64,000 nucleotides of DNA from Bacilli bacterium (GTDB lineage Bacteria; Bacillota_I; Bacilli_A; RFN20; CAG-826). The notes under the pieces were generated by a model, which worked only from the letters and a program-made list of their open reading frames with translations, ran no database searches and was not told the origin of the DNA. Both the position numbers and the translations under genes were made by a program. The DNA lies in NCBI GenBank assembly GCA_017477255.1, contig JAFUXB010000004.1, forward strand, positions 81,132-145,131, given 5' to 3'. This document shows, piece after piece, positions 16,637-48,100 of the stretch (positions within the stretch are counted from its first letter, which is position 1; the number at the start of each line of letters is the position of its first letter).

Positions 16637-17782
16637 ATGTTTAATAAGCATGATATTAGTAGAGATGAATGTCAACTTTATGAAAAACAAGCAAAACTGG
16701 GTTATGACTGGTGGCGGCATTCATTTACTGGAACAAATATAAAAACAAAAGAAAGAAAATCATTCTTTATTGAATTTTTCTTGTGTAATCCTAGTAGTGG
16801 AAAAGAATATCCAATACTTGGTCAACTTGATGAAAATAAAGCAAATAAAATTAAACCATCATACTTAATGATTAAAGCTGGTGCATGGGGAAAAAACGCA
16901 AAACAACTTCATAAATTTTTTGGTTGGAAAGAGATAGAAGTTAAATATAAAAAACCTTTTTATATTAAAGCAGATGGCTTTTTCTTAGACGAGCTTTCAA
17001 CGATTGGGTCGATTAAAATTGACGCGGAAGAAATTAAAAAACATCCTGAATATATGTGCCAAAGCGGAGAGATGTCTTGGAATTTAAAGATAAAAAAAGA
17101 TATAGCTTTTAATGTTGGTTATGGTGCTGGGAAACTATTTAGAAAGATGCAACTTTTTGAAATGTTTTGGCATGCTGAAGGAATGAAATCTTATTTTGAA
17201 GGAACTGTTACAATTGATGGCGAAGAATATGAAATTAAAAATGAAGATTCTTATGGTTATGCAGATAAAAACTGGGGAAAAGATTTTACTTCACCTTGGG
17301 TTTGGTTATCTTCAAATAATTTAACTAGTTTAAATACAGGTAAAAAACTTGAAAATAGTGCATTTGATATTGGTGGTGGATGCCCAAAAATTGGAAAAAT
17401 AGCTTTAAACCGCAAGCTTTTAAGTGCATTTTACTATGAAGGAAAGTGTTATGAATTTAATTTTTCTAAGTTTTTGCATAATGTAAAAACTACATTTGAT
17501 TGTCATGAAACTGAAGATGAAATTATTTGGCATGTTGAACAAAAAACATGGTCAAATAAAATGATTACTGATATCAAATGTAAAAAAGAAGACATGCTTT
17601 TAATTAATTATGAAGCTCCTAACGGATCAAGACTTCACAGAAGATTATGGAATGGTGGTAATGGAGTAGGAACCATTAAACTTTACCATAATAAAAAATT
17701 AATTGATGAAATATATTGTGAAAATGTTGGATGTGAATTTGGACAATATAATACTCTTAAAAAAAGACATCCAGTAAGATAA
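16637..17782 (+). CDS. Tocopherol-cyclase-family protein
   Basis: GYDWW(CGG)HSF, FFIEFF, YGYADKNWGKDF, PWVW and LWNGGNG. Confidence 0.75.
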   Translation: MFNKHDISRDECQLYEKQAKLGYDWWRHSFTGTNIKTKERKSFFIEFFLCNPSSGKEYPILGQLDENKANKIKPSYLMIKAGAWGKNAKQLHKFFGWKEIEVKYKKPFYIKADGFFLDELSTIGSIKIDAEEIKKHPEYMCQSGEMSWNLKIKKDIAFNVGYGAGKLFRKMQLFEMFWHAEGMKSYFEGTVTIDGEEYEIKNEDSYGYADKNWGKDFTSPWVWLSSNNLTSLNTGKKLENSAFDIGGGCPKIGKIALNRKLLSAFYYEGKCYEFNFSKFLHNVKTTFDCHETEDEIIWHVEQKTWSNKMITDIKCKKEDMLLINYEAPNGSRLHRRLWNGGNGVGTIKLYHNKKLIDEIYCENVGCEFGQYNTLKKRHPVR

Positions 17783-17830
17783 TAAAAGTGAAAGTTTAAT
17801 TATAAAAAATTATAATTAATTGGTATTACT

Positions 17831-19021
17831 ATGGCAAAGAATAAAAAGATGACAAAAGCACAAAAAATATGGACAGCAGTAGGGCTTAGTGCAGTTATTG
17901 GAGTTTTTAAAGCTGTTGGATTGGTTTTAAGTTATGTTGTTTATATTATTGGTTCATATAATAGAATTGGTAGTATTGAACTTACTCCTGATGGAAATGC
18001 TCAACACGAAAAAGTGTCGATTGGATCTAATTATAAGGCTATAACTTATAACATTGGTTTTGGTGCTTATTCACAAGATTATACTTTCTTTATGGATGAT
18101 GGATATGATGATGAAGGTAATTTAATTACTGGGTATTATTCAAAAGGTCGTTCTAAAGATGAAATTTTATATAACATAAATGGATCGAGTAATATAGTTA
18201 AAAATGAAGATTCAGATTTTGTTTTACTCCAAGAAGTAGATGTTCATTCAACTAGATCTTATTACGTTGATGAAGACAAAATTTATAGAGGTAAATTGAA
18301 TGAAGGTTATATGCATTCATTTGCTAAAAACTTCCATACTGCATTTTTACCATATCCTTTATATGATATGCATGGTTCAGTTCAATCTGGTTTATCAACT
18401 TATTCAAAATATAAAATTACACATAGTGAAAGAAAAGAATATACAGTTGCTACTGATTTTTCAAAATTCTTTGATTTAGATAGATGTTTCCAGGTTAATA
18501 AAATTGAAGTAGACAATGGAAAAATCTTATATCTGGTAAATAACCACATGTCAGCTTATGATGAAGGTGGAAAAATTAGAAAGATTCAAATGGAAGAGTT
18601 AAATGCTTTCTTAAATAAAGTTAAAGAAGAAGGTAATTATTGTATTGTTAGTGGAGATTTTAATCATGATTTATTGGTTAATAATCCAAAATTTGATTAT
18701 AATGATTCAACAAATAGACCATTTGGAATGACAAAAAAGAAACCAGATTGGTTATCTTATTTATTTGATGAAAATCATAATTCACCAATCACTTCAGGCT
18801 TTACTGTTTATGGTAGCGATAATAATCCAACTTGTAGAAATAACAATATAACTTGGATTGAAGGTGAAACGTTTGTAGCTTCAGTTGATGGATTTATAGT
18901 TTCTGATAATATTGAAGTTACATCAATTAAAACAATTAGAACAATAAATCCTAAGACAAATATTGAAGGTTTTGCTTATAGTGATCATGAACCTGTATCA
19001 CTTGAATTTAAATTAAAATAA
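17831..19021 (+). CDS. Membrane-anchored endonuclease/exonuclease/phosphatase (EEP) family protein
   Basis: N-terminal TM; TYNIG, LQEVD, GDFN, DGFIVS and SDHEPV. Confidence 0.85.
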   Translation: MAKNKKMTKAQKIWTAVGLSAVIGVFKAVGLVLSYVVYIIGSYNRIGSIELTPDGNAQHEKVSIGSNYKAITYNIGFGAYSQDYTFFMDDGYDDEGNLITGYYSKGRSKDEILYNINGSSNIVKNEDSDFVLLQEVDVHSTRSYYVDEDKIYRGKLNEGYMHSFAKNFHTAFLPYPLYDMHGSVQSGLSTYSKYKITHSERKEYTVATDFSKFFDLDRCFQVNKIEVDNGKILYLVNNHMSAYDEGGKIRKIQMEELNAFLNKVKEEGNYCIVSGDFNHDLLVNNPKFDYNDSTNRPFGMTKKKPDWLSYLFDENHNSPITSGFTVYGSDNNPTCRNNNITWIEGETFVASVDGFIVSDNIEVTSIKTIRTINPKTNIEGFAYSDHEPVSLEFKLK

Positions 19022-19023
19022 AG

Positions 19024-19081
19024 AAAAATACTTGAGTTCTGCAAGGTTTTTGAAAAAATATCGTAGATTTGCATGGTTTTC
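19024..19081 (+). repeat. 28-bp dispersed repeat, tandem pair (copies 2-3)
   Basis: AAAAATACTTGAGTTCTGCAAGGTTTTT followed by AAAAATATCGTAGATTTGCATGGTTTTC. Confidence 0.75.
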
Positions 19082-19149
19082 TAAAATAGATTCTTATTGG
19101 AAATTATTAATAAATTATTAAATGAATTATAATATTCAAGGAGAGCGTT

Positions 19150-20271
19150 ATGTATAAAATTATCGAAGTTAAATCTAAAAAAGACATTAATAGATTTGTA
19201 AAATTTCAAATAGATTTATATGAGGGAAATAAATATTTTGTTCCAGCTTTAAATAGTGATGAGAAGAAAATATTTAAAAAGAATTATGTTTATAACAATA
19301 CATGTAAAACAGTTTTTTATTTATGTGTAGATGAAAATAATAAAGTTGTAGGAAGAATTGAAGGAATTATTCAACTTGCAGCAAATGAAAAATGGAAACA
19401 AAAAAGAGTTAGATTTACAAGGTTTGATGCAATAGATAATCAAGAAGTTGCTAATCTTTTATTAGATTCTGTTGCTAAATGGGGAAAAGAACAAGGAATG
19501 GATGAACTTGTTGGTCCTTTAGGATATAGCGACTTAGAAAGAGAAGGTTTACTTATTGAAGGTTTTGATAAATTCCAAACTTATGAAGAACAATATAATT
19601 TTGATTATTATCAAAGGCTTTTAGAAAATTATGGACTAGAAAAAGATGTTGATTGGCTTGAATATAAAATTTTCCCACCAAAAGAAAAAGATGAAAGATT
19701 AATAAAAGCTAGTGAAATGGCTAAAAAACGCTATAAATTAAGAGCTTATTCTCCAAAAAGTGTCAGTAAATTTATTAAAGAATATAAAGAGCAATTCTTT
19801 GAAATAATTGATATTACATATAATAAGATTTATGGAACTGTTCCGTTTACAAAAGAAATGATGGATTCGAGCATTTCTAACTTTAATTTAATCTTAAGAC
19901 CTCAAGATATCATGGTAGTTTTAACAGAGGACAATAAAGTTGTAGGATTTGCTTTAGTATTTCCTTCACTTTCAAAAGTAATTACTAAATATAAAGGAAA
20001 AATCACACCTAGATTTTTAATTGATTTCTTTAAAAATAAAAAGAAACCTAACGTCATTGACTTAGGTTTAATTGGTGTTTTACCAGAATATACAATGAAA
20101 GGTGTCGCAGGTATTATCGTAACACATTTCTATGATCATTTATGCAATAATGGCATTGATTATATGGAAACTAATTTAATGCTCGAAAATAACAATAACA
20201 TCCTCGGATTTATGAGTAATTTTGAAAGAGAATTTACAAAAAGAAGAAGATGCTTTGTTAAAAAGATTTAA
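19150..20271 (+). CDS. YghO-like tandem GNAT acyltransferase
   Basis: FVKFQIDLY, VVGRI, LVGPLG...GLLIEGF, YNFDYY, IGVLPEY and LENN are typical of this family. Confidence 0.75.
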   Translation: MYKIIEVKSKKDINRFVKFQIDLYEGNKYFVPALNSDEKKIFKKNYVYNNTCKTVFYLCVDENNKVVGRIEGIIQLAANEKWKQKRVRFTRFDAIDNQEVANLLLDSVAKWGKEQGMDELVGPLGYSDLEREGLLIEGFDKFQTYEEQYNFDYYQRLLENYGLEKDVDWLEYKIFPPKEKDERLIKASEMAKKRYKLRAYSPKSVSKFIKEYKEQFFEIIDITYNKIYGTVPFTKEMMDSSISNFNLILRPQDIMVVLTEDNKVVGFALVFPSLSKVITKYKGKITPRFLIDFFKNKKKPNVIDLGLIGVLPEYTMKGVAGIIVTHFYDHLCNNGIDYMETNLMLENNNNILGFMSNFEREFTKRRRCFVKKI

Positions 20272-20285
20272 ATATCCAAATAATT

Positions 20286-20513
20286 TTATTTAGTAGCGTG
20301 TTCGTTTAAATAATTTAATACGTCTTTAACTGTTTTAAAAACGACTAAATCATCAAAAGTGATGCCAAATTCATCTTCAATTGACATTGACATCATTAAC
20401 ATAGCAATACTGTCCATTCCTAAATCTTCAACAAGCAAAGAATCTTCAGTAACTTTGCTAACATCTAAATTTGGTACATTTTCTTTAATAATTTTTAATA
20501 ATCTTTCGTACAT
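20286..20513 (-). CDS. acpP: Acyl carrier protein
   Basis: DLGMDSI phosphopantetheine site, IEDEFGI and KTVKD. Confidence 0.92.
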   Translation of the reverse strand: MYERLLKIIKENVPNLDVSKVTEDSLLVEDLGMDSIAMLMMSMSIEDEFGITFDDLVVFKTVKDVLNYLNEHATK

Positions 20514-20526
20514 AATTTCTCCTTAA

Positions 20527-21495
20527 TTAATTTTCATAAAAAGTTTTATTTTCAGTGATATTTAACAATATATGAGCAGCACTTAAAATTGCATCTGGAC
20601 CACTAGATCCTCTACATTTTAAGCAATATTTTTTAGCACCTAAAAGTATGCCTGCACCCAATGATTCAAAATTATAAATTGACATTAAATGTCCAACAAT
20701 TTGTTTAGAAACCGCCTCGTTCCCGGTTATTTTTCCAAATTTCATAATTTCCATAATGAAATTTTTAGCTGATCCTTCAGTAATTTTTAATAACTGATTT
20801 CCAACAAATCCATCAGCAACTAAGACATCGCAGTTATAATTTAATGCATTGCTTCCTTCAACATTTCCAACAAAATTAATACCTTCTTCATGAGCTAATA
20901 ATTTGTGGGTTTCTTTAATTAATGCATTACCTTTTGTAGGTTCTGTACCATTTGAAAGAAGTGCAACTCTTGGACTTTCAACTTTATAAAGTTTTCTCAT
21001 AAAGTCAGTTCCTAAATGAGCAAATTCAATTAGTTGTTCAGAACCACAATCAATAGAAGCACCAGTATCAACTAAACAAGTGAATTTACCTTGAACAGTT
21101 GTAGGTAAAATTGCTGCTAAAGCAGGTCTTGTTCTTTTTTCATTTAATAAATATCTTAAAGAACCAGCAAGTAAAGCACCAGTATTTCCAGCACAAATTA
21201 ATCCGATTACTTCATCGTTATTTGCACATTCTGCTAATGCTTTAAAAATAGATGCATCTCTTTTTTTAAATAAAGCTTCTTTAATATTATCTAAATTAGT
21301 AATAGTATCATTTGCTTCAATTATTCTTATTCTATCTTTTGGAAAGTCATAACTAGAAATTAATTCTTCTTGACCTACAATAATTAACTTAACGTTTTGA
21401 AATTTTTCAAGTACTAGTTTGCAGCCTTCTAAAATTGCTGTTGGCCCTTTGTCGCTTCCTAAAGTGTCAATAACAATGGTATATGATTTTTCCAT
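20527..21495 (-). CDS. plsX: Phosphate acyltransferase PlsX
   Basis: IDTLGSD, AGNTGA, RPALA, DTGA, NFVGNVEG and VADGFVGN. Confidence 0.92.
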   Translation of the reverse strand: MEKSYTIVIDTLGSDKGPTAILEGCKLVLEKFQNVKLIIVGQEELISSYDFPKDRIRIIEANDTITNLDNIKEALFKKRDASIFKALAECANNDEVIGLICAGNTGALLAGSLRYLLNEKRTRPALAAILPTTVQGKFTCLVDTGASIDCGSEQLIEFAHLGTDFMRKLYKVESPRVALLSNGTEPTKGNALIKETHKLLAHEEGINFVGNVEGSNALNYNCDVLVADGFVGNQLLKITEGSAKNFIMEIMKFGKITGNEAVSKQIVGHLMSIYNFESLGAGILLGAKKYCLKCRGSSGPDAILSAAHILLNITENKTFYEN

Positions 21496-21612
21496 TTTTA
21501 ATCTCCCTCTTTATTTGACCACTATAATTATATATAAAAGAAAGAATAGGTGCAAACTTATAAGGGTTTTATAACTAATATTTGAAATTAATTTGCGAAA
21601 TTTGAATTTTTA

Positions 21613-21640
21613 AAAAATAATTTAGATTTGCAGGGTTTTT
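21613..21640 (+). repeat. 28-bp dispersed repeat (copy 4)
   Basis: AAAAATAATTTAGATTTGCAGGGTTTTT. Confidence 0.7.
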
Positions 21641-21717
21641 GATAAAATAAGCTTTAAAATTCATGTATAAATGAACTAGATTTTAATGTATATTTGCAAA
21701 GACAAGCTATAATATTA

Positions 21718-22728
21718 ATGATGGAATTTAAAGACTTTTTAATTAGTAGAAGGAACGCACTTGGATATTCACAAAATGATATTGCTAGCGCGGTTGGGTA
21801 TAGTGCTCAACTTGTTTCATTGTGGGAGCAAGGTAAAGCTTTTCCAGATTTAAGTGTATGGGGTAAACTTTGCCAAATTTTAAATGTTGATTTAGAAAAT
21901 TTCCTTTACGCTAGAGATTATAAAGTTAATAAAATATGCGATATTTATAAATTTGATGCTAATAGATTTGCTAATAACCTTAAATATTTAAGAAAAAAGA
22001 ACAATTTAACCCAATTGGATTTAGCTAAAATGCTTGAAGTAAACGTAAAAACTGTTGCTTCGCGGGAAAAAGGCACATCTTTACCACAATTATCTAATTT
22101 TTTACATTTATGTTCTACATATGAATATAAAGTTGAAGAATTATATTTTTGTCTTCCTCATAAAGATGAAACAAATAAGAAGCCAATTAAGAAAAAAAGA
22201 GTGTTTTTACCTATATTTTTGCCAATAGTTATTGTTATTAGTTTAGGTGCAGCAACGACAACTGGAGTAGTCACGACTATTCAAAGAAGACAAAAAGCAA
22301 CTCCAATTGAAAATAAAACAGAAAATTCAATTTTATATGATGAACACTATCATTGGTATGTTAATGAAAAGGGTGAAATAGCTCAAAAAGAAGAACATGT
22401 CTTAAAAGAAACTGTTATTGTTGAAGTAAGTTGTGGTTATGAAGGAAAAGTTTTATATGCATGCGAAAAATGTCCATATCATTATCATAAAACTGTTGAA
22501 CCTACTGGTGACCATAATTTTGAAGAAGGTTATAATTTTGATGATGTGGGACACTGGAAAGAGTGTGTAATTTGTGATGCTACAACAGAGTTTGAAGCGC
22601 ATCAGTTTATTGAAATCTCTTATACTGAACCAACCTATGATAATGAAGGAAACTATGAATATCAATGTGAAATTTGTGGTTATCAATATTTTGAACGGAT
22701 TTCACCTTTAGTACCTGAAAATCCATAA
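21718..22728 (+). CDS. Membrane-anchored regulator: two XRE HTH domains, one TM helix and Cys/His-rich external repeats
   Basis: HTH1 SQNDIA...VSLWEQG and HTH2 TQLDLA...VAS(CGG)EKG; TM IFLPIVIVISLGAA; CxxC and HW motifs. Start taken at ATG 21718/21721. Confidence 0.75.
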   Translation: MMEFKDFLISRRNALGYSQNDIASAVGYSAQLVSLWEQGKAFPDLSVWGKLCQILNVDLENFLYARDYKVNKICDIYKFDANRFANNLKYLRKKNNLTQLDLAKMLEVNVKTVASREKGTSLPQLSNFLHLCSTYEYKVEELYFCLPHKDETNKKPIKKKRVFLPIFLPIVIVISLGAATTTGVVTTIQRRQKATPIENKTENSILYDEHYHWYVNEKGEIAQKEEHVLKETVIVEVSCGYEGKVLYACEKCPYHYHKTVEPTGDHNFEEGYNFDDVGHWKECVICDATTEFEAHQFIEISYTEPTYDNEGNYEYQCEICGYQYFERISPLVPENP

Positions 22729-22934
22729 AAATAAATAATTTATTAAAATAAAAATAATAAGGGTAGATCCTTATTTTTTTAATTTTATATGTAAAATATC
22801 AAATATCCGTTTGTTTTGAGTAAAAACCGGTTTGTTTGTTTCGTTTTTTGATACATTCAATAAATAATATAAATGCTAGCACATATCATTAATAACGTTA
22901 TTGATGAACTTTTAAATATCAATAAGGGGAAATT

Positions 22935-23153
22935 ATGAGATTAAACAAATCGCAAGCATTATTATTTATTTATGAAACTTTAATGAAAAATAGAAGAATC
23001 ACAAAATCTGAGGTTCAAGATGTTTTAGACATACCTGATTTAACGTTTAGACGTTATATGCAAGAAATAAGAGCGTATTTATATAACTTTTATAAAACAG
23101 AAGAACTAAAATATTCGAAAAAATGTGGTTATTATTATTTAACTGAGGAATAA
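22935..23153 (+). CDS. Small winged-HTH protein
   Basis: ITKSEVQDVLDIPDLTFRRYMQEIR resembles an HTH_11/WYL-associated N-terminal HTH; RBS GGGGA upstream. Confidence 0.55.
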   Translation: MRLNKSQALLFIYETLMKNRRITKSEVQDVLDIPDLTFRRYMQEIRAYLYNFYKTEELKYSKKCGYYYLTEE

Positions 23154-23181
23154 GCGTTAAAAAACGCTTATTTTTTTATTT

Positions 23182-25656: not shown

Positions 25657-25668
25657 AACATATCAAAA

Positions 25669-25783: not shown

Positions 25784-25830
25784 TTTATTATGTATAATAA
25801 TAATGAATTCATATTATAGAGGTTTTATTA

Positions 25831-28301: not shown

Positions 28302-28316
28302 GATAAAAAACATAAG

Positions 28317-34632: not shown

Positions 34633-34824
34633 ATGGAATTCAAGGAAAAGTTAGTTTATGTTAGAGCAAAATTAAATCTTACTCAAGAGGAATTAGCGAA
34701 AAAACTTAATGTATCTTTCCCTACAATTTCAAGATGGGAAAACGGAAAGACAAGGCCTACAAAAAAAGGACTTATGACTTTTGATGTTTTTTGCAAAGAA
34801 AACAATATTATTTGGGAGGATTAA
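34633..34824 (+). CDS. XRE-family HTH regulator (controller-like), first gene of the defence operon
   Basis: LTQEELAKKLNVSFPTISRWENGKTRP; RBS GAGGT before ATG 34633. Confidence 0.88.
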   Translation: MEFKEKLVYVRAKLNLTQEELAKKLNVSFPTISRWENGKTRPTKKGLMTFDVFCKENNIIWED

Positions 34825-34826
34825 TT

Positions 34827-37103
34827 ATGGCTACTAATTGGGATGATTTGGTCTCTGGTGAAGAACTTCTTAAAGCTACAAAAAAGAGAAAAAATAAATT
34901 TATTGAGCAAAAAGTGTCTGCAGATAAAATTGATGAATTTATCAATAAAGGTTGGGAAGTATTTAAAGAATATAAAAATGGTTCAGCTCTTGTGAAAAAA
35001 GAAAAATCTGTAGGAGATCTATTTGAAAATGAAGTTTGGCTAATATTCCAAAAAATGGGATTTAAGGTGATGAACGCCACAAATAAATTTAAATTAGATT
35101 ATTCTGATGTTTCGTCTAAGCAAATTGATATAATTGCTATTGATGATGAAATTTGCTTACTAATTGAGTGTAAGGCAACTGAAAAAGAAGATAATACTAA
35201 AACTTGGAAGACTGAACTTGAATCAATTAACGGAAACTTCAAAGGGTTATCCAATGAAGTTAGAAAGAAATATCCTAAAGTAAGAGTTAAGTATATTTTC
35301 GCTACAAAAAATTTCGTTATTGGTGATGCTGATATTAAGAGAATGGAAGATTTTAGAATCGCTAATTTCGATTATGAAAAAGTAAGATATTACAATGATT
35401 TGTCAGATCATTTAGGTTCTGCAGCTAGATATCAATTATTGGGCAATTTATTTGCAAAAACTGAAATTAAAGGTATGAATTCAAGTGTTCCTGCAATTGA
35501 AGGAAAAATGGGAAACAAGACTTATTATACTTTTTTAATTGAGCCAGAAAGACTGTTAAAGCTAGCATATATTTTACATAGAAATAAAGCAAATCATAAA
35601 TTAATGCCTACATATCAAAGACTAATTAAAAAAGATAGATTAAAAGCTATTAGAAAATTTGTTAATGAAGGAGGGTATTTTCCTAACTCTTTAATTGTAT
35701 CCATAGATACAAATGGAAGAGGAGTTGTTTTTGAACCATCCTCAACCAGAACTGATAATAACCTTTCAAGAATGGGTACGTTAAAGCTTCCAAAGACTTA
35801 TCAATCTTTATATGTAATTGATGGACAACATAGATTATACGGTTATTCTGATTCAAAATTTGCTTCATGTAATTCAGTTCCTGTTGTGGCTTTTGTTGAT
35901 ATGCAAAAACACGAACAAGTTAAACTGTTTATGGACATAAATGAAAATCAAAAATCAGTACCTAAAGGTCTTAGAAACACATTAAATATTGATTTATTAT
36001 GGAATGCTGAATTATATGCTCAAAGGCAGGAAGCATTACGATTAGATTTAGGACAACAATTGGGTGAAGATACAAAGTCTCCTTTATACGGTAGAGTTGT
36101 TACAGGTGAAGATTTATCAAATACAAAGCGTTGTATAACTCTAGATTATATTAACGATGCTTTTAAGCAATCAAATTTCTTTAATATTTACAAAAAAGGT
36201 AAGAACGAAATACTGACTCCTGGTACATTTGATAAGACAGATAATGATGAGACAGAGGCTATATTATTTCCATTTATATCTAAGTGCTTTAAAACAATTA
36301 AGGATTATTGTTCAGAAGAACGGGATAGAGGTAGTGAGGGATTTTTAACAATTAACAATACCACATTTGCCTTGATTAAAGTTTTTAATGATATAGTCAA
36401 TATCCAATTAAAGAAAGAAAATAAGGTGATAGTTGATGATGGTGATTCTTTCTTTAAAGAATGTGAAGGCATGTTATTAAATTTAGCTGATACAATTAAT
36501 ACTTTAGACCTTGATACGATAAATGCAATTAAAACTGCGAAAGGCGGAGCAGCTAAGAAAACATCATGGAATAAATTAAGGGTAGCTTTTAATACCAAGT
36601 TCCCTGATTTTACATATCCAGAACTTGAAGAGTATGTCAAGGAAAATTGTGTTAATAATAATCCGTATGCTTCACAATATATTGGAGAAATACTCGATGA
36701 AATCAAGAGACGTTTGAAAGATAAAATTGGAAATGACTCTCAATGGATGCACAAGTATTTACCTGAAAAATTAAGAAATGATTTAATATCTAAAGTTGCA
36801 ATTGAAAAAGTAAATAGACAAATTCAAGGTAATGATGAGGAAGTCGATGAATGGGACTATATTTCTTTTAATGAAATCAAACAAATTGCAAACTATGGTA
36901 CAAACTGGTCAGCTTTTTGCAGTGATGTTTTAGTTTTACCATCCAATAAGATGAATAAAATTAATACCTTGCAATGGCTTACTGATTTAGAATCAGCTAA
37001 AAATAGAATCAGTTTAAATCAATCTATTGTTACAAGTGAGTTTGAATCAATTAAGAAAATATATAGTGAATTTATTAAAGATGAAAATGGTGAGGCTATC
37101 TAA
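34827..37103 (+). CDS. DGQHR (DndB/ParB-like) domain protein with N-terminal PD-(D/E)xK nuclease-like and C-terminal Swt1/HEPN-like domains
   Basis: FENEV...QIDII...IECK; YQRLIKKDRL, FPNSLIV, VIDGQHRLYG and FMDINENQKSV. Start at ATG 34827 after GGAGG. Confidence 0.85.
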   Translation: MATNWDDLVSGEELLKATKKRKNKFIEQKVSADKIDEFINKGWEVFKEYKNGSALVKKEKSVGDLFENEVWLIFQKMGFKVMNATNKFKLDYSDVSSKQIDIIAIDDEICLLIECKATEKEDNTKTWKTELESINGNFKGLSNEVRKKYPKVRVKYIFATKNFVIGDADIKRMEDFRIANFDYEKVRYYNDLSDHLGSAARYQLLGNLFAKTEIKGMNSSVPAIEGKMGNKTYYTFLIEPERLLKLAYILHRNKANHKLMPTYQRLIKKDRLKAIRKFVNEGGYFPNSLIVSIDTNGRGVVFEPSSTRTDNNLSRMGTLKLPKTYQSLYVIDGQHRLYGYSDSKFASCNSVPVVAFVDMQKHEQVKLFMDINENQKSVPKGLRNTLNIDLLWNAELYAQRQEALRLDLGQQLGEDTKSPLYGRVVTGEDLSNTKRCITLDYINDAFKQSNFFNIYKKGKNEILTPGTFDKTDNDETEAILFPFISKCFKTIKDYCSEERDRGSEGFLTINNTTFALIKVFNDIVNIQLKKENKVIVDDGDSFFKECEGMLLNLADTINTLDLDTINAIKTAKGGAAKKTSWNKLRVAFNTKFPDFTYPELEEYVKENCVNNNPYASQYIGEILDEIKRRLKDKIGNDSQWMHKYLPEKLRNDLISKVAIEKVNRQIQGNDEEVDEWDYISFNEIKQIANYGTNWSAFCSDVLVLPSNKMNKINTLQWLTDLESAKNRISLNQSIVTSEFESIKKIYSEFIKDENGEAI

Positions 37104-38520: not shown

Positions 38521-38558
38521 TCAAGTACGAGTAAAATTTTAGAAAGGGGATAAAGCAG

Positions 38559-41120: not shown

Positions 41121-41221
41121 AGGGTGTTTCAAGGGTGTTTCACTTTTTCGTTATGGTGTTTCAAAATTTAAGGGATGTTTCATTTGTATTACCATACTTG
41201 TCCTTATACATATTGAAACAA
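41121..41221 (+). other. att-like site B: left arm (GGTGTTTCA repeats) plus core
   Basis: AGGGTGTTTCA at 41121 and 41132, GGTGTTTCA at 41155, GGGATGTTTCA at 41172; core ATATTGAAACAA at 41210-41221. Confidence 0.65.
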
Positions 41222-41387
41222 GGAAGATGATCCATACATGAATAAAACAATAGAATTAATAATTGATAATACAATAGTAGATGTTAATTGGTTAGATAAT
41301 GATTCTGTTACAGCCTTGACTAATCTTGCAAAAGATGGAATCATTAGTTTTGATAAAGTATTTTTTGAAAAGCACCAAACAAAGTAG
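41221..41387 (+). pseudogene. 3' fragment of a cyclophilin-like-fold lipoprotein
   Basis: EDDPYMNKTIELIIDNTIVDVNWLDNDSVTALTNLAKDG resembles the start of cyclophilin-like (DUF369-type) domains, then breaks off. Confidence 0.5.
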
Positions 41388-41407
41388 TAGATGGTACTAT
41401 TAAAGAA

Positions 41408-41660
41408 ATGCACGAAGGATGTGCAGATTTTGTTAGAAGAGGCGAAGCTTTCTATTATGATACTAAGGGAAAAATAAAGGATAAATTTCCTAAAGAAGAA
41501 AGAAATTCAAACGGTGTTTGTCATGTAAGACCACATGCAAGAGTAGGATTGGATCACTATGAATTACCAATAGCTGATAAAGTGATAGGAATAACCTCAT
41601 ATACAAAGCAGAGTTTTTAGTTTAATAAGGATTTTGTTGAAAAAATGATAAATGGTGCTG
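41408..41660 (+). pseudogene. C-terminal remnant of a Sau3AI/MutH-family restriction endonuclease
   Basis: CHVRPHAR...TKQSF(TAG)FNKDF, with TAG at 41618 where this family typically has Trp (KQxFWxN). Confidence 0.6.
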
Positions 41661-42584
41661 AAGAATGGTGATTTTTGTATGGATACTAAAAATGAAGAGT
41701 TATTTAAAAGATATTTAAATCCAACGAGAGGTTCCCATTATGTAAAAAGAGAGTATTTATCTAATTGGTCTAGTGATGGAACGCACATTTTAACATGTAG
41801 AGATAAAACTAATTTTGTTTCAAACAATTTGAAAGATGTCTGTACTGAAAGAGATATGTATAAAATGGAAAAATTAACTAATCTCGAATTAATGCAAGTA
41901 CAAACTTTTTATAAAAACTCAAAACCTCGGGTAAAGGAAATAAATGATAGTTTTATTGGTATGTGGCAACTTGCTTGTTCAATTATGGAAAACAAAGACA
42001 ATCCAGAAGACAAAAACTTGGCAAATAAAATAGCTATTCAGTGCGGAGAAGATTTACAATCTAATTTTGAATCCACTTTAGATGATTGTATAAAAAAATG
42101 CTTGTTAAATTGTGAGGAAAGTTTTTTGGACCAAGATGACAAATTACTAAATTTTGGGCTTTATCTTTTTAGTCAATATTTAAGAACTCAAAAACAAAAA
42201 AACAAAGTAATAAATAACCTAGAAAACGCTAATCATTTTGAAAATATTAAAGGTCAATTGAATCCTGAAAAATTGTGGAAAGTACTGATTATTATTATGA
42301 CAAATATGGCGTCTTATGAATTATTATCTAGAAAAGAAACAAACCATATTTGTTTTATCAAAAGTAATCAAAAAGCATTAATTACTAGTGATCAACCAGT
42401 TGTAAATATTGCGAAAGATATTGACCATGATTATGTAAAATTCTATTATCCTATTTCTCCATCAGTTTCTATAATATTTCCTGTTGAAAAGTTTTCAATA
42501 ATTGAAGACGATATTAGCTTAATAAAGAAAATGAATGATGTAATTATAAATAATAGTTATAGAATGTTTTTTAAATTAAAATAA
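41652..42584 (+). CDS. DUF4238-like protein
   Basis: HYVKREYLSNW near the N-terminus, QYLRT, ITSDQPV and YYPISP. Confidence 0.75.
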   Translation: MVLKNGDFCMDTKNEELFKRYLNPTRGSHYVKREYLSNWSSDGTHILTCRDKTNFVSNNLKDVCTERDMYKMEKLTNLELMQVQTFYKNSKPRVKEINDSFIGMWQLACSIMENKDNPEDKNLANKIAIQCGEDLQSNFESTLDDCIKKCLLNCEESFLDQDDKLLNFGLYLFSQYLRTQKQKNKVINNLENANHFENIKGQLNPEKLWKVLIIIMTNMASYELLSRKETNHICFIKSNQKALITSDQPVVNIAKDIDHDYVKFYYPISPSVSIIFPVEKFSIIEDDISLIKKMNDVIINNSYRMFFKLK

Positions 42585-42630
42585 AACACTAAAAAAGAGA
42601 TAAAAATAAGATATTTTTTGAAACATTTTT

Positions 42631-42895
42631 AAGGGGTGTGCAAAGGGTGTGCAGTGGTGTGCATTGTATTAAAATGATTCATCTTTGCCATATTGAAACA
42701 ACTGTATTGAAACGAGATTCTGGTCTCAAATCAGCACTTTTTCTTTATTTATAGACAATTTTGGTAAAGTTCAAGTCCTGTTACCGATAATAATGCCTAA
42801 TTTTTATTTGTTGAAAACAAGCTGGTAAAGTGTGCTTACACGAAAGTTTTACTTTTACACGATAGACACGAAAGGCCAAAGCTATTGTGTAAAGT
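42631..42895 (+). other. att-like site C: left arm, core and right arm
   Basis: GGTGTGCA x3 at ~11-bp period, core at 42690-42701, a hairpin, and ACACGA x3 (42838-42875). Confidence 0.7.
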
Positions 42896-42917
42896 AAAAA
42901 ACGTTTATATAAAATAC

Positions 42918-43014
42918 GTGAATGCTTAAAATAAATTCCTGATAATAAACAAACTTAAATTTTATTAGACCAAATTCTCAAATTTTAATTTAAAACGGAA
43001 TTTGAATTGAGAAT
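42918..43014 (+). repeat. 97-bp dispersed repeat, copy 2
   Basis: Matches 12464-12560. Confidence 0.8.
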
Positions 43015-43320
43015 TATAGTGTTTTTAGAGGATTTTTGAGCACATTAAAAAGAATGTGTAAATTCCGTTTATTAGACTAAATTCCGTTTAAAAAACAAAA
43101 ACTGATTTTACTTTTAGAATTAATGTAGAAAAAAATGTAATGCTTTTTAAAAAAGAAATTGATAAATTTAAGGGAATGGTCAACAATCTCTTTTTGTTAT
43201 GATCGACAATTATGTAACGAAAGAGAGGATATGGTTTTGTTTGATAAGGGATGTAAAAGAGGATTTCTTCCTCTAAAAAATTATATTTAATATTTTTGGG
43301 TATACATAGTTGGAGGAAAT

Positions 43321-44169
43321 ATGAAAACAACAATCAAATTATTTTTAATGGATGGAACTGCAACAGGAAGGATTAAATGTAGTTTTTCTTCTGGATGGAA
43401 TGGAATCGGGTATAAAATTCCAAAATCAGATTTAGATAAATGTGATAATATCACTTTTTTAAAGCAAGCAGGTGTATATTTTTTATTTGGGTGCGATGAA
43501 GAAGACAGTGAATTTGTATATGTAGGACAAGGAAATAAGAGACAAAATGGGCAAGGAGTACTTAGTCGAATAAAAGAGGCTCATGATAGCGTTCCATTAT
43601 GGAATGCTTGTGTAGTTTTTGTTTCTTCAGGAGAAGATATAGGTCCTACTGAATTAAATTATCTTGAAAATAGATTTACTAATATGGCGTCTGTGTCAGG
43701 AAGATATCTAGTTAAAAATAATAAAAATCCAAGCTCATCTCAGCTTTCAGAAGAAGATGAAGCGGATATGTCATTATTCATCGAAAATTCAAAATTAATT
43801 TTAAGTGCATTAGGTTATAGAGTTCTTGAGGAGCCTCTTGTGACAAACAATGATAAACAGACTACATATACATATTCTTATAACGGAAAAAAAGCAAAAG
43901 GAGTTCTCAGTGATGATGGGTTCGTTTTACTTAAAGGAAGTCAACTTAATGACGAAAGTTCTTTTGCAAAAAGATGGATTAAAAAAATACCGGCACAAAG
44001 AAATTTATATAAAAACAAAATAGAAAACTTGGTCACAACAGAGGATATACTTTTTAAAAGTTCATCTGGCGCAGCATGCTTTTGTTCTGGGCAATCTGTT
44101 TCCGGACCTAAAAATTGGGTTGATTCTGATGGAATAAGCCTAGAAAATAAAATTAAAAAAAATGTTTAA
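43321..44169 (+). CDS. GIY-YIG nuclease with C-terminal DUF4357
   Basis: IKLFLMDG, GVYFL...VYVGQ, YLE, FVLLKGS and FKSSSGAA...SGPKNW. Confidence 0.85.
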   Translation: MKTTIKLFLMDGTATGRIKCSFSSGWNGIGYKIPKSDLDKCDNITFLKQAGVYFLFGCDEEDSEFVYVGQGNKRQNGQGVLSRIKEAHDSVPLWNACVVFVSSGEDIGPTELNYLENRFTNMASVSGRYLVKNNKNPSSSQLSEEDEADMSLFIENSKLILSALGYRVLEEPLVTNNDKQTTYTYSYNGKKAKGVLSDDGFVLLKGSQLNDESSFAKRWIKKIPAQRNLYKNKIENLVTTEDILFKSSSGAACFCSGQSVSGPKNWVDSDGISLENKIKKNV

Positions 44170-44279
44170 TCTTTTAAAATATGTAAATAGTATTGAATTT
44201 TTGACTATTCTAAAATTTTAATGTAGTTAACCAATATCAAGAATTGAAATAAAAATTTATAAACTGCATAATAATAACA

Positions 44280-44360
44280 CCATAAAGAGTGTGGTTAGGG
44301 ACAAGCCCAGTAATCCACCGGCAACCCAAGTAATGTTGGGTGCCAAAGCTTGAACGATGG
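44280..44360 (+). ncRNA. SAM-I-clan riboswitch (compact variant lacking P4, SAM-I/IV-like)
   Basis: CCAT-AAAGAG, AGGGAC-AAGCCC, CCGGCAACC, GGTGCCAA and GATGG; P1 is CCAT/ATGG. Confidence 0.8.
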
Positions 44361-44376
44361 GAACAATAAAACTATT

Positions 44377-44406
44377 AAAGCTCCTATCGTGACGATGGGA
44401 GCTTTT
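44377..44406 (+). terminator. Riboswitch-coupled intrinsic terminator
   Basis: AAAGCTCCTATCGT-G-ACGATGGGAGCTTTTT. Confidence 0.8.
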
Positions 44407-44438
44407 TAATTCCTCTTTATGGTATTAAGGAGAGAAAT

Positions 44439-44957
44439 ATGGAAAAAGAATTATATGAGGATTTAAAAAGGCTTTATAGAGAACAATTAGGGGGATATGC
44501 AGATCGATATTGGAGATTTCGTGTATATTACCTTTTAAAAGAAAATTATAACTATGATTAGGATGACCCTAAAAATCGTAAAGAAAGGGAAGAAATGTTC
44601 AAGGATGAAACTCCTTGGAAACCAGACCCAGTAGTATATGAAACTTACATACCAGATAAAGAAATTAAAGAAAGAATCTTAGGTGAACTTAAAACACAAA
44701 ATAAAGATTTGTATGAAAAAGTGATTATTTTAGAGAAATATCTAGATATGTCTTTAGATGAATATAAAGAAGCGCGTGGAAAATATTTTATCGGTGCATA
44801 TTGCAATGATATACCTTTGATAGATAATTGGTCAAAAGAGAATTTAAGGTCAATTAAATTCCCTGAAAATGTTGACTTAATGCAAAAATACTATGATTAT
44901 TTTATTAAAAAATATCCAAGTTTATTAAATGTAATAGAAAGAGAACTCAAGAAATAG
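44439..44957 (+). pseudogene. Hypothetical gene with an internal in-frame TAG
   Basis: RBS AAGGAG and ATG 44439 are in frame with ORF 44595-44957; TAG at 44559-44561. Confidence 0.6.
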
Positions 44958-45134
44958 TTAGAAAATAGCAAGGATTAAAGCGTTTTTGGATTACTTTTAT
45001 ATTTATTGATCTAATTAATACATTATTTATTAGGATATAAAATATCTTGAGTTTTTGAGTTTTCATCAAGTTATTTTATATATCAAATAATGAGCTAACA
45101 AAAATATAAATTATTTTTATATTGGAGAAATATT

Positions 45135-48100
45135 ATGAAAAATAAGTTTTTACTCGGATTAGCAATTTGTTTAGGAACTGTTAGTTTACTTTCAGGATGT
45201 ACTAAAGACGATTTAATGGCTGCACTTGATAATAATACAAGTGAATTACAATCAGAAATTGATAATTTAAAAGAACAAATTAAAGTATTACAAGACAAAA
45301 TAACTAGTCTTGATAATTCAATGAGTGAAGAAATCAAAAATGTTAAAAATGATTATCAAGCTAAAATTGATGAATGTAATTTAAAAATTAATCAAAACAC
45401 AAAAAAGATTAAAGAACTTGAAGAACAATTAGCTTTAGAAAAAGCAAATTTAGAGAAAGATTATAATGATAAATTAGCTGGTTTAAAATTGCAATTTGAA
45501 ACTAAAAACGAAGAGTTAAGTGCAAAAATCTTAAAAAATAGTCAAGATCTAGAAGCTTTAACTAAAAAACACGATGATGATAAAAAAGAATTACAAGATG
45601 ACTATAATAAGAAAATTAATGATTTAGATACTAAAGACACTTTAGCTAGAGAAGAGTTACAAAAAGACTATAAAGAAAGATTAGAAAACTTAGATAATAA
45701 ATATTTTAGTGAAGTAGAAAAATTAAATGAGACAATTACTTCATTAAATAACTCTTTTGTTAATTTTAAAATCCAATATGATGCTGATAAAAAAGCATTA
45801 GAAGAAGACTATAATACAAAAATAAATTCATTAAGTGAAAATGAACAAGCAGCTAGAGATAAATTAAAAGAAGAATTCCAAGAAGCTTTAGAACAATTAG
45901 AAACTGAATTTAATAATCAAGTCTCTACTATTAATAGTAATTATGAAGAATTAAAAGCTAAACATGATGCTGATAAAATAGCTTTAGAAGATGATTATAA
46001 TTCTAAAATTAATTCTTTATCTGAAGAAGAACTAAAAGCAAGAAACGAATTAAAAGAAGATTATGACAAGAAAATTAGTGATTTAGATAATGAATTTAAT
46101 GAGAAGGTAAATAGTTTAAATGAATCTTTAGAATCATTAACAACTAATTTTGATCTTTTTAAAGAACAATATGTAAAAGATAAGAAAGCTTTAGAAGATG
46201 CTTTAAATGAAGAAATTTTAAACTTAAACAATAAATTAGATAGTACAAAAAACGAAATTATTGAAGACTATAATAAGAAGATTGGTGATTTAGATCAAAA
46301 ATATCAAGAACAAGTAACTGTTTTAAATCAAGCGCTCGAACAAGATAAATCCGATTTAAATAAGTTTAAAGAGAATTATGCAGTAGATAAAAAAGCATTA
46401 GAAGAAGAATTTGAAAGTAAATTGAATAATTTAGTTACAAAATATGATGCCGAAATTAGTGATATACAAGGTGAAATCAATTCGCTTAATAGTGAATTAG
46501 TTAATTTAAAAACTGAAATGAATAATCTTATTGAAGAAATTCAAAATGATTATAATAGCAAAATTAGTGATATTATTTCTCGACTTGAAACGTTAGAAGC
46601 AGTTGAATATCATACCGTGACATTTAACTCGAATGGTGGTAATGAAGTTGCTTCTCAAAAAGTAAAACACGGTGAAAAAGTAAAAGAACCAACAATAAGT
46701 AGAACTGGATATAATTTCAATTATTGGACATATAAAGAAAAAGAATTCGATTTTGATTACTTTATTGTAACTGAAGATATAACTTTAGAAGCTTCATGGT
46801 CGTATATTCCATATTCAGTTACTTTTAAGAATGATGACGGATCAATTTTAGAAAAACATGAAAATATTGAATATGGCACTTCAATTGAATATGAAGGTGA
46901 AACTCCAACAAAAGCCATACAAGAAGAACATTATGTATACGAATTTACTGGATGGGATATAGACACATCGTTTGTAAACGGTGATTTAATAGCAACTGCA
47001 CAATATAGTGCAAGTTATGCACCATATACAGTTGAATATTTAGATGAAGATGGAACATTGCTTCAAAGCAAATATGTCACTAGTGAAAATGAATCAACCT
47101 ATGATGGTGAGGTGCCTACTAAAGAAAATGATGAATTATATGAATACCAGTTTAAAGAACGGAAGAAAATAAGTGCAGATGATCAAAAAATTACATTTAA
47201 AGCAGAATATTACAAGAAATCTATTGATATAACTTTTGAACAAGGTTCTTACATGGGTGAAAATTTAGAATGGGTCTATGCCGAGTCTTGTAAGTATGTA
47301 AGCAAGTATAGTGGCATAGAGGAAGAGCCTATTATTCCGGATATGTGGGATAATCAAAAAGTAGTAGGTATTAGCCAAATGGCATTTCAATCTTGTTCTA
47401 CTGTTAAAAAGATTTCATTACCAAGATATATGAGGGTATTGAATGAATTGGCATTTTATCATTGTAATAATCTAAGTGAGATTACTTTTAATGATGATTT
47501 AATCTTGATAGGTGATAGTTGCTTTAGCAGTACTAAGTTAAAAACCATTAAATTAAATAAAAATCTTTTAAGAATTGATCCTTATGCTTTCTCATACTGT
47601 GATTTAATAGATGAAGTAGAAATCCCTGAAAAGATTACTTCTGATAATTTAGGCCCTAAGATTTTTTATGCGTGTAAAAATCTTTCAAAAGTAACAATTC
47701 ATGAAAATATTAAAGAAATACCAAGTGAGATGTTTCATGGTTGCACGTCTTTAAAAGAAGTTCAAGGGTTTGAGTATATTGAAACTTTTAATGACTCATG
47801 TTTTTATGCATGCAGTTTATTAAATGATGGTGTGATAAATATTAGTAAAAACGTAAAATCAATTGGTAAATCTGTTTTTTCTACTAATAAAATCTATATA
47901 AATGCTTCAGCAAATTTAAAATTATTTCCTTATATTGCCACTGCTTCAGTAATTTATTTAGATATTGAAAACGACTTAAAAACATTCGCATCAGATTGGT
48001 CTTCTGGGATAATAGTTTTATATGGTTATAAAGGCTGTATATATGATAGCTTAGGTTCAAAATATGCCGTTTATATGAGAAATGGAGAATATAAAGCAAG

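What the first reader, a model, noticed from the sequence alone, without database searches (positions are those of the whole stretch)
16715..47162. CGG appears to be read as tryptophan (sense-codon reassignment)
Seen: scanning by eye, I found only six in-frame CGG codons in the real genes (16715, 22063, 22696, 36321, 41928, 47160). Three lie at positions where Trp is expected. At 22063 the second XRE HTH reads VAS-CGG-EKG, whereas the first HTH of the same protein has VSLWEQG and the XRE at 34633 has ISRWENG. At 47160 the B-repeat reads YQFKE-CGG-KK, whereas sister repeats in this window read YEFTGWD, YEFLGWD and FKFKNWS. At 16715 the tocopherol-cyclase-like protein reads GYDWW-CGG-HSF, and I recall WWWH in homologues. 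The codon at 36321 (EE-CGG-DRG) is compatible with Trp; 22696 and 41928 are uninformative. CGA and AGG sit at ordinary Arg positions (QYRIG, HPYTRAL). Established: CGG->Trp was reported in a clade of low-GC uncultivated Bacilli (Shulgina and Eddy, Codetta). Inference: this genome uses that code, so the supplied ORF translations are wrong at these sites. CGG also occurs in defence-island genes, which suggests they have adapted to the host code.
Basis: partly seen in the sequence, partly recalled or inferred. Interest (0 to 1): 0.85.

Follow-up and report, generated by a model that had tools for sequence, protein, structure and literature searches.

The report
CGG codon read as tryptophan
This low-GC gut bacterium almost certainly reads the rare codon CGG as tryptophan instead of arginine, a genetic-code change already published for its group, so standard translations of its genes are wrong at a few dozen positions.

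Summary
The six CGG codons lie in frame at the stated coordinates. Without the duplicate contigs the assembly has 27 in-frame CGG codons.

With CGG masked as X:
- 11 of the 27 sites sit in Trp-dominated columns. Examples: W in 120 of 120 tocopherol-cyclase-like homologues, 119 of 119 DUF1848, 79 of 80 GlyRS, 25 of 29 EF-G, 103 of 126 DndB-like.
- 3 sites have weaker aromatic or Trp support.
- 6 sites lie in variable columns.
- 7 sites could not be assessed.
- No site lies in an Arg-dominated column.

A Codetta-like likelihood against two congeners favours Trp over Arg by 10^9.4 and 10^12.6. CGA, CGC, CGT, AGA and AGG behave as Arg.

Thirty-five of 59 congeners carry a tRNA with anticodon CCG; all 29 read in full have a Trp-like body. 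The nearest relative lacks tRNA-Arg(UCG). The tRNA was not found in this 53%-complete assembly.

CGG→Trp was published for uncultivated RFN20 Bacilli (Shulgina and Eddy 2021), later called Onthovivens. This is therefore a correct call of a known alternative code. A standard-code subclade exists within the same genus.

The parts
16715..16717 (+). CGG codon, residue 27 of the tocopherol-cyclase-like protein (gene 16637-17782)
   Evidence: W at this position in 120 of 120 homologues (64-98% identity), motif DWW-W-H/N. A 98%-identical protein (P0001) has W.
22063..22065 (+). CGG codon, residue 124, second XRE helix-turn-helix of the protein encoded at 21694-22728
   Evidence: W in 9 of 10 homologues. 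The tenth (P0121, 94% identical, a standard-table translation) shows R, so it probably also has CGG.
22696..22698 (+). CGG codon, residue 335 of the same protein, in the C-terminal tail
   Evidence: Homologues have V 6, I 2, N 1, T 1 of 10. This is a variable hydrophobic column, neither W nor R.
36321..36323 (+). CGG codon, residue 511 of the 770-aa DndB-like protein (gene 34791-37103)
   Evidence: Of 126 full-length homologues: W 103, gap 10, Y 3, F 2, K 2, E 2, and Q, G, S, T 1 each; R 0. Twenty-four of the 150 best hits were dropped for being 700 aa or shorter. Pfam DndB hit.
41928..41930 (+). CGG codon, residue 93 of the DUF4238 protein (gene 41652-42584)
   Evidence: Only one homologue was found (65% identity). 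It has Cys (TGT), so the site is uninformative.
47160..47162 (+). CGG codon, residue 676 of the 1041-aa BspA-LRR / Listeria-Bacteroides-repeat protein (gene 45135-48260)
   Evidence: Two sister repeats in the same protein have W at the matching place (residues 531 and 607, e.g. YEFTG-W-D). Alignments to congeners are only 22-25% identical and give E and D, so they are not reliable. Support for Trp is weak.

Best explanation
The organism is a roughly 53%-complete, 28% GC metagenome-assembled genome of uncultivated gut Bacilli of the RFN20 type. It translates CGG as tryptophan. CGA, CGC, CGU, AGA and AGG remain arginine.

Proposed mechanism:
- The tRNA-Arg species that would read CGG (anticodons CCG and UCG) are gone. 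CGU, CGC and CGA are left to tRNA-Arg(ACG).
- A dedicated 74-75 nt tRNA with anticodon CCG reads CGG. It has a tRNA-Trp-like body: U instead of the arginine identity base A20, a small AATGGTA D-loop, G73, and usually A1-U72.
- This tRNA is charged by the single TrpRS.
- Low GC had driven CGG to near zero. It now reappears only as a rare synonym of TGG (about 1.8% of Trp codons) through T-to-C changes at Trp sites.

Shown here: the codon-to-column evidence in this genome, the tRNA set in congeners, and the contrast with a standard-code congener. Inferred: that this genome itself carries the tRNA, and that the tRNA is charged with Trp only.
For: 1. Site by site, with CGG masked as X, 11 of 27 sites lie in Trp-dominated columns:
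- tocopherol-cyclase-like: W 120 of 120
- DUF1848: W 119 of 119
- GlyRS: W(TGG) 79 of 80 named genomes, Y 1, and W in the 4 PDB alignments printed
- EF-G: W(TGG) 25 of 29 congeners, Y 4; outgroup genera W 3, Y 2 of 5
- DndB-like: W 103 of 126
- XRE HTH: W 9 of 10
- IMPase: W 15, F 8, Y 3, others 3 of 29, and W in the 4 PDB alignments printed
- DUF4185 Asp-box: W in 2 of 2 PDB chains
- NUDIX, ABC/FtsX and DUF402: TGG in the orthologue of the nearest relative G059. ABC/FtsX and DUF402 also have W in G003.

2. Proteome-wide reciprocal best hits:
- G000 CGG aligns to WFGWSKYWE in G003 and WTTKYDFWWWDV in G059. There is no R among these 21 alignments.
- Trp is the maximum-likelihood amino acid, by 10^9.4 and 10^12.6 over Arg.
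- Controls in the same alignments: CGA, CGC, CGT, AGA and AGG align to R in 37-71% of cases, and TGG aligns to W in 66-70%.

3. Congeners:
- G059 (EF-G 87% identical) has CGG aligned to W at 9 of 13 sites against G003 and 7 of 8 against G000.
- G003 has CGG aligned to R or K at 6 of 9 sites and never to W.

4. tRNAs:
- 35 of 59 congeners have a tRNA with anticodon CCG.
- All 29 read in full are 74-75 nt, have G73 and have U after G18G19.
- Of 17 CCG tRNAs in other genera of the family, 14 are 77-nt Arg-type with A20.
- G059's 45 tRNA genes include Arg ACG, CCT and TCT plus this CCG tRNA, and no UCG.

5. CGG codons occur on all 5 non-redundant contigs.

6. The same reassignment is published for RFN20 Bacilli.
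Against: - No tRNA(CCG) and no tRNA-Trp is in this assembly: 14 tRNAs in total (aragorn) and no blastn match.
- Two spots where close relatives carry the tRNA(CCG) gene hold no tRNA in G000. These are downstream of tRNA-Gln(CTG) at C6:60490-60566 and after the small gene ending at C6:58224.
- Six assessed sites lie in variable columns where neither W nor R is seen.
- Seven sites could not be assessed.
- At the GH32 site, 24 homologues give K 9, Y 5, R 3, F 2, W 2, T 2, Q 1. Only the nine closest are aromatic.
- G059 has Y, not W, at the GlyRS site.
- The tRNA(CCG) necessarily keeps C35 and G36, which are arginine identity nucleotides (recalled), so some Arg charging is not excluded.
- The EF-G tree leaves G000 in a polytomy that includes the standard-code subclade.
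- There are no peptide data.
Confidence: 0.9

Rival explanations
1. CGG is decoded ambiguously (Trp and Arg) or inefficiently in this species. This could happen if the Trp-like tRNA(CCG) is partly charged by ArgRS, or if the tRNA has been lost and CGG is close to unassigned.
For: - No tRNA(CCG) is in the assembly, and two syntenic spots lack it.
- The anticodon keeps C35 and G36 (sequence; their role as Arg identity elements is recalled).
- Six of 20 assessed sites lie in variable columns that would tolerate either residue.
- Shulgina and Eddy themselves say that ambiguous translation cannot be excluded without experiment.
Against: - CGG sits at invariant Trp positions of essential proteins, EF-G and GlyRS. 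Arg there, or stalling, would be costly.
- The assembly is only 52.75% complete with 14 tRNAs, so absence of the tRNA means little.
- All 29 congener tRNA(CCG) genes read lack A20.
Confidence: 0.07
2. The code is standard. The CGG codons are real Trp-to-Arg substitutions (single T-to-C changes) in a degenerating genome, or they are sequencing or assembly errors.
For: TGG to CGG is a single transition. CGG is very rare, with 27 sites.
Against: - Eleven independent hits on Trp-dominated columns, including invariant ones, and none on Arg-dominated columns.
- Likelihood 10^9-10^12 against Arg.
- The duplicate contig C3 (99.996% identical to C7) repeats 8 of C7's 10 CGG codons.
- A 94%-identical protein from another record keeps the same residue at the HTH site.
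- Congeners carry the matching tRNA.
- The standard-code congener G003 shows the opposite pattern.
Confidence: 0.02
3. The mRNA is edited from C to U at these sites, so that CGG becomes UGG and is read by the normal tRNA-Trp(CCA).
For: It would give Trp without a new tRNA, and no tRNA(CCG) is seen in this assembly.
Against: Congeners with the same codon pattern carry a dedicated Trp-like tRNA(CCG). I recall no precedent for such site-specific editing of many bacterial mRNAs; this was not searched. I did not examine RNA reads.
Confidence: 0.01

Closest known systems
CGG->Trp in uncultivated Bacilli of GTDB order RFN20 (Shulgina and Eddy 2021, eLife, PMC8629427), called Onthovivens in later papers (PMC13092985; bioRxiv 10.64898/2026.05.03.722492)
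   Same: - Same codon and same new meaning.
- Very low GC and CGG near 1 per 10,000 codons.
- A dedicated tRNA(CCG) with Trp features in relatives, and no tRNA(UCG) in the nearest relative.
- CGA stays Arg.
- Gut MAGs whose named relatives include Candidatus Enteromonas. That genus is assigned to RFN20, family CAG-826, in PMC8035907.
   Different: Identity with the published clade is therefore probable but not shown. The figure supplement and tables that list the published genomes could not be seen. Here the decoding tRNA is missing from the assembly.
CGG->Trp in Anaerococcus (same paper)
   Same: Same reassignment, low GC, tRNA(CCG) with Trp identity features, and tRNA(UCG) missing (passages).
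   Different: It belongs to a different class of Bacillota and is described as an independent origin. Support from conserved single-copy genes was lacking there, whereas here it is strong.
CGA and CGG ->Trp in Absconditabacteria (same paper)
   Same: CGG is read as Trp.
   Different: There CGA is reassigned too and UGA is read as Gly. Here CGA aligns to Arg (R is the top residue, 41-47%) and TGA ends 72 of 667 ORFs.
Unassigned CGG in Mycoplasma capricolum (Oba et al. 1991, as cited in PMC8629427)
   Same: An AT-rich genome in which CGG has fallen out of use. It is the proposed intermediate stage.
   Different: Here CGG is used at conserved Trp sites of essential genes, so it is assigned and not vacant.
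CGG->Gln in Peptacetobacter, and CGG->Ala proposed in RGIG3102 (bioRxiv 10.64898/2026.04.02.715157)
   Same: The same codon is captured by another amino acid in low-GC Bacillota.
   Different: The new meaning differs. In my likelihood test neither Gln nor Ala came close to Trp. Gln appears only once in a top-5 list, about 10^10 below Trp, and Ala never appears.

Membership tests
CGG->Trp alternative code of low-GC Bacillota (RFN20 / Onthovivens type) | In-frame CGG codons align to conserved Trp columns rather than Arg columns | tested here: met
   11 of 27 sites are in Trp-dominated columns and 0 are in Arg-dominated columns. Trp is the maximum-likelihood residue by 10^9.4 and 10^12.6 over Arg.
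CGG->Trp alternative code of low-GC Bacillota (RFN20 / Onthovivens type) | The other Arg codons (CGA, CGC, CGU, AGA, AGG) keep their Arg meaning | tested here: met
   R is the commonest aligned residue for each of them: 37-63% against G003 and 42-71% against G059.
CGG->Trp alternative code of low-GC Bacillota (RFN20 / Onthovivens type) | A dedicated tRNA with anticodon CCG that carries Trp features and lacks Arg identity (no A20) | tested here: inconclusive
   Not found in G000, which has 14 tRNAs and is 52.75% complete. Present in 35 of 59 congeners, including five of the six closest by EF-G. All 29 read in full have U after G18G19 and G73, and are 74-75 nt.
CGG->Trp alternative code of low-GC Bacillota (RFN20 / Onthovivens type) | No tRNA-Arg(UCG), which would also read CGG | tested here: inconclusive
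   None in G000's partial assembly. None among the 45 tRNAs of the nearest relative G059. The 8 congeners with a true tRNA-Arg(UCG) have no tRNA(CCG).
CGG->Trp alternative code of low-GC Bacillota (RFN20 / Onthovivens type) | Low genomic GC and very rare CGG | tested here: met
   GC is 27.8-29.2% per contig. CGG is 1.26 per 10,000 codons.
CGG->Trp alternative code of low-GC Bacillota (RFN20 / Onthovivens type) | Membership of the published clade (RFN20, Onthovivens) | not testable with these tools
Named relatives at 62-72% GlyRS identity include Candidatus Enteromonas and Alloenteromonas and many 'uncultured Bacilli / Erysipelotrichaceae / Mollicutes' MAGs. Enteromonas is assigned to RFN20 in PMC8035907.
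CGG->Trp alternative code of low-GC Bacillota (RFN20 / Onthovivens type) | Trp demonstrated in the protein at CGG sites | not testable with these tools
   No proteomic data were available. The source paper also lacks them.

The most novel reading that the evidence does not exclude
The boundary of the genetic-code change runs through this one genus.
- 35 of 59 congeners carry the Trp-like tRNA(CCG).
- A well-supported subclade carries tRNA-Arg(UCG) instead (G003, G049, G017, G012, G068 in the tree, 100/99; 8 such genomes by pattern). Only G003's codons were examined, and it reads CGG as Arg or Lys-like.
- A sister-genus genome (G207) appears to hold both a Trp-like tRNA(CCG) and an Arg(UCG)-type tRNA.

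If the standard-code subclade is nested inside the reassigned species, the reassignment has been reversed. Alternatively, the Trp-like tRNA has spread horizontally. If G207 is not a binning artefact, it would be a living ambiguous intermediate. G000 sits in the unresolved basal polytomy.
Probability: 0.2. Interest if true: 0.65.

Novelty: already known. Interest (0 to 1): 0.35.

Why it matters
Sense-codon reassignments in bacteria are very rare. The papers read here list only a handful, all of arginine codons apart from one proposed threonine (ACA) case.

For this genome the practical point is that table-11 translations put Arg where the cell most likely puts Trp. This affects at least 27 positions in half a genome. 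Among them are EF-G, GlyRS, an inositol monophosphatase, a NUDIX hydrolase and three genes in this window, including the DndB-like gene. Gene callers, structure predictions and heterologous expression of these genes would all carry the error.

Genes that enter from standard-code donors with CGG=Arg codons would be mistranslated here, which makes the code a partial barrier to gene flow.

Scientifically it adds a well-supported member to a known case. The support from conserved single-copy genes is stronger than what the source paper reports for Anaerococcus. It also points to a genus in which reassigned and standard species can be compared directly.

Tried and rejected
- **tRNA-Trp BLAST search across the genus.** I used the tRNA-Trp(CCA) of G003 as a BLAST query, hoping to catch a CCG-anticodon duplicate. 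The weaker second hits, 20 of which I fetched, were all tRNA-Gly(TCC). This was a dead end. The anticodon-loop pattern search found the CCG tRNAs instead.
- **G000's own tRNA(CCG).** Aragorn on the whole assembly found none. Blastn-short with 29 congener tRNA(CCG) sequences gave no hit better than 14 bases. Synteny with G011/G046 and G059/G013 showed that both expected spots are occupied by other genes.
- **A second, specialised TrpRS.** One trpS match each in G003, G059, G011 and G017, and none in G000's assembly. Rejected for the four congeners searched.
- **Reversal of the reassignment in the G003 subclade.** G003's tRNA-Arg(UCG) shares its first 31 bases with its tRNA-Arg(ACG), which suggested a newly evolved tRNA. 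However, Arg(UCG)-type 3' halves nearly identical to G003's are common in other genera of the family. The EF-G tree with five outgroups leaves the base of the genus unresolved. The idea is weakened but not excluded.
- **Unassessed sites.**
  - GH127-like L010: the PDB alignment starts three residues after the site, and 0 of 300 sampled phylum genomes (G000 aside; one further genome unscored) matched at E 1e-30.
  - L012, L015, L009: no Pfam family, no relatives in viral contigs, and none in G059 or G003.
  - L003 and L017: the site lies outside the Pfam domain and there are no homologues in G059 or G003.
  - L011 residue 842: no usable alignment.
- **Unmasked alignments.** PDB and BLAST alignments made with CGG translated as R shift the site onto nearby R residues or open gaps. 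I therefore masked CGG as X in all counts that I cite.
- **Not attempted.** The sequencing-run tools and complex prediction. Reads from a gut metagenome could not be attributed to this species for a tRNA whose flanks are unknown.
- **Could not be seen.** The figure supplements and tables of Shulgina and Eddy and of PMC13092985. They may list this very genome or genus.

Full report
**What is in the sequence**

The window is C7:81132-145131 of an assembly of 836,894 bases in 7 contigs, at 28% GC. Contigs C3 and C5 are 99.99% identical copies of parts of C7, so the non-redundant assembly is about 699 kb. It is rated 52.75% complete.

They are the only in-frame CGG codons in window ORFs of at least 100 aa.

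Genome-wide, my ORF caller took the longest ORFs of at least 100 aa and chose them greedily without overlap. It gives 35 in-frame CGG, against 159 and 865 in the other two frames. After removing the duplicate contigs, 27 CGG remain in 25 proteins among 215,120 codons, against 1,496 TGG. They lie on all five non-redundant contigs.

**What the CGG codons align to**

I translated every query with X at CGG, so that the aligners could not be pulled towards Arg. Unmasked alignments did shift the site.

Eleven sites fall in Trp-dominated columns:

| Site | Aligned residues |
|---|---|
| Tocopherol-cyclase-like, window 16715 | W 120 of 120 |
| DUF1848 | W 119 of 119 |
| GlyRS | W(TGG) 79 of 80 named genomes, Y 1; W in the four PDB alignments printed |
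| EF-G | W(TGG) 25 and Y 4 of 29 congeners; W 3 and Y 2 of 5 outgroup genera |
| DndB-like, window 36321 | W 103 of 126, R 0 |
| Second XRE HTH, window 22063 | W 9 of 10; the tenth is a 94%-identical protein showing R |
| Inositol monophosphatase, before the DPxDGT motif | W 15, F 8, Y 3, I, L, D of 29; W in the four PDB alignments printed |
| DUF4185 Asp-box | W in 2 of 2 PDB chains |
| NUDIX | TGG in the orthologue of G059 |
| ABC/FtsX | TGG in the orthologue of G059; W in G003 |
| DUF402 | TGG in the orthologue of G059; W in G003 |

Three sites have weaker support:
- GH32: the nine closest homologues have W 2, F 2 and Y 5. The fifteen more distant ones have K 9, R 3, T 2 and Q 1, in what looks like a shifted alignment.
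- Two Listeria-Bacteroides repeat positions, window 47160 and L011 residue 522. Sister repeats have W there.

Six sites are in variable columns:
- window 22696: V, I, N, T
- window 41928: one homologue, Cys
- the N-terminus of a permease: F, T
- an integrase loop: K, F
- a ComEC-like protein: G, K
- a DnaC-like protein: S, D

Seven sites could not be assessed. No site lies in an Arg-dominated column.

**A whole-proteome test with controls**

I rebuilt two congeners from fetched stretches:
- G003: 878,755 b, 25% GC, 44 tRNAs.
- G059: 1.27 Mb fetched, 27% GC, 45 tRNAs. It is the closest relative by EF-G, at 87% identity.

I then made reciprocal-best-hit alignments with CGG masked. The table shows which residue each genome's CGG codons align to in the other genome.

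| CGG codons of | Compared with | Aligned residues |
|---|---|---|
| G000 | G003 | W 3, F, Y, G, S, K, E (9 sites) |
| G000 | G059 | W 4, T 2, D 2, K, Y, F, V (12 sites) |
| G059 | G003 | W at 9 of 13 |
| G059 | G000 | W at 7 of 8 |
| G003 | G059 | R 3 and K 3 of 9, never W |

There is no R among the 21 G000 alignments.

In the same alignments the other five Arg codons of G000 align to R in 37-71% of cases, and TGG aligns to W in 66-70%.

I estimated emission probabilities from all other codons and computed a likelihood over the 20 amino acids:
- For G000, Trp is best. The next residue is 10^4.6 lower against G003, and Arg is 10^9.4 and 10^12.6 lower against G003 and G059.
- For G059, Trp is best, with Arg 10^25 and 10^21 lower.
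- For G003, Arg and Lys are best, with Trp 10^12 lower.

The method therefore separates a reassigned genome from a standard one within the same genus.

**How it probably works**

A pattern for an anticodon loop with CCG followed by a T-arm found a tRNA in 35 of 59 congeners. These include G059, G011, G046, G013, G054 and G072, which are six of the seven genomes closest to G000 by EF-G.

Aragorn labels these tRNAs Arg by their anticodon. All 29 that I read in full have these features:
- 74-75 nt long
- G73
- U, not A, after G18G19
- the small AATGGTA-type D-loop also seen in the tRNA-Trp(CCA) of G059
- A1-U72 in 22 of 29

In other genera of the same family, 14 of 17 CCG tRNAs are ordinary 77-nt tRNA-Arg with A at that position. 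That A20 is the main ArgRS identity element, and that G73 and A1-U72 are TrpRS elements, is recalled knowledge.

G059 has Arg tRNAs ACG, CCT and TCT and no UCG. CGG there can thus be read only by the CCG tRNA. This matches the arrangement Shulgina and Eddy describe for the three Firmicute CGG reassignments.

There is one TrpRS gene each in G003, G059, G011 and G017. Charging by TrpRS is inferred, not shown.

In G000 itself neither this tRNA nor tRNA-Trp is assembled. Two positions where relatives carry the gene are occupied otherwise. With 14 tRNAs in a half-complete bin, this is weak evidence of absence. It is nevertheless the main gap in the case.

**Comparison with what is known**

Shulgina and Eddy (eLife 2021, PMC8629427; abstract and passages read) predicted CGG->Trp in three lineages:
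- a clade of uncultivated Bacilli of GTDB order RFN20
- Anaerococcus
- Absconditabacteria, together with CGA

They report low GC, loss of tRNA(UCG) and a tRNA(CCG) with Trp features. Two 2026 papers call the Bacilli lineage Onthovivens (passages read).

Named relatives of G000's GlyRS include Candidatus Enteromonas and Alloenteromonas and many unnamed Bacilli, Erysipelotrichaceae and Mollicutes MAGs. Enteromonas is placed in RFN20, family CAG-826 (PMC8035907, passage read).

I could not name G000's genus. It most probably is the published lineage or lies next to it. The supplements that would settle this are closed.

**Side observation: a standard-code subclade in the same genus**

Within the genus, 8 of 59 genomes have a true tRNA-Arg(UCG), and none of those has the CCG tRNA. 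In an EF-G tree, the five of them that were sampled form one clade together with two genomes that have neither tRNA (support 100/99). The base of the genus, including G000, is a polytomy even with five outgroups.

Arg(UCG)-type tRNAs are common elsewhere in the family. Retention of the ancestral state in that subclade is therefore the simpler reading, but a reversal is not excluded.

G207, from another genus, shows both a Trp-like tRNA(CCG) and an Arg(UCG)-type match. It is a 130-contig bin with 3% contamination, and I did not resolve this.

**Verdict**

The kind is already known, so the interest is moderate. It is a correct and well-supported call of a rare but published alternative code. Its practical consequence concerns how this genome should be translated.

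Noticed in passing
G000 contigs C3 (121,355 b) and C5 (16,790 b) against C7: C3 and C5 are 99.996% and 99.994% identical to parts of C7. The assembly is redundant. Its true size is about 699 kb, and codon counts from the raw file are inflated.
   Followed up: yes
Genus of G000: G003, G017, G048, G049, G068, G012, G005, G014: Eight congeners carry tRNA-Arg(UCG) and no tRNA(CCG). G003's own CGG codons align to R or K at 6 of 9 sites. The genetic code therefore differs between species of one genus. The position of this subclade is unresolved in an EF-G tree.
   Followed up: partly
L438 (G207:C113, another genus of the family) and G207:C19:23443-23471: G207 has a 75-nt Trp-like tRNA(CCG) and also an Arg(UCG)-type tRNA match. 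This is either a stage with two tRNAs competing for CGG or a binning artefact. The bin has 130 contigs and 3% contamination.
   Followed up: no
G000 C6:58224-60566; L134, L136, L137, L146: The tRNA(CCG) gene sits in different neighbourhoods in different congeners: next to tRNA-Leu(CAA), about 450 b downstream of tRNA-Gln(CTG), or directly after a small gene. Both of the last two spots are tRNA-free in G000.
   Followed up: partly
window 16715 and 22063; proteins P0001 and P0121: A 98%-identical tocopherol-cyclase-like protein from another record has W where G000 has CGG. A 94%-identical HTH protein shows R, so it presumably has CGG, at the same place. This looks like TGG/CGG synonymous variation between close strains. 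The underlying DNA of those records was not seen.
   Followed up: no
window 34791-37103 and 41652-42584: The first is a 770-aa protein with a DndB domain and a weak Hjc-like nuclease match. A DUF4238 protein lies a few kb downstream. The 770-aa family is large: 1,835 representatives at E up to 0.001. I did not study its function.
   Followed up: no
G000 C7:37222-38001 (L018) and C1:98873-99514: The CGG-bearing inositol monophosphatase is a divergent second copy, 25-36% identical to those of relatives. Another IMPase-family gene lies on C1.
   Followed up: no
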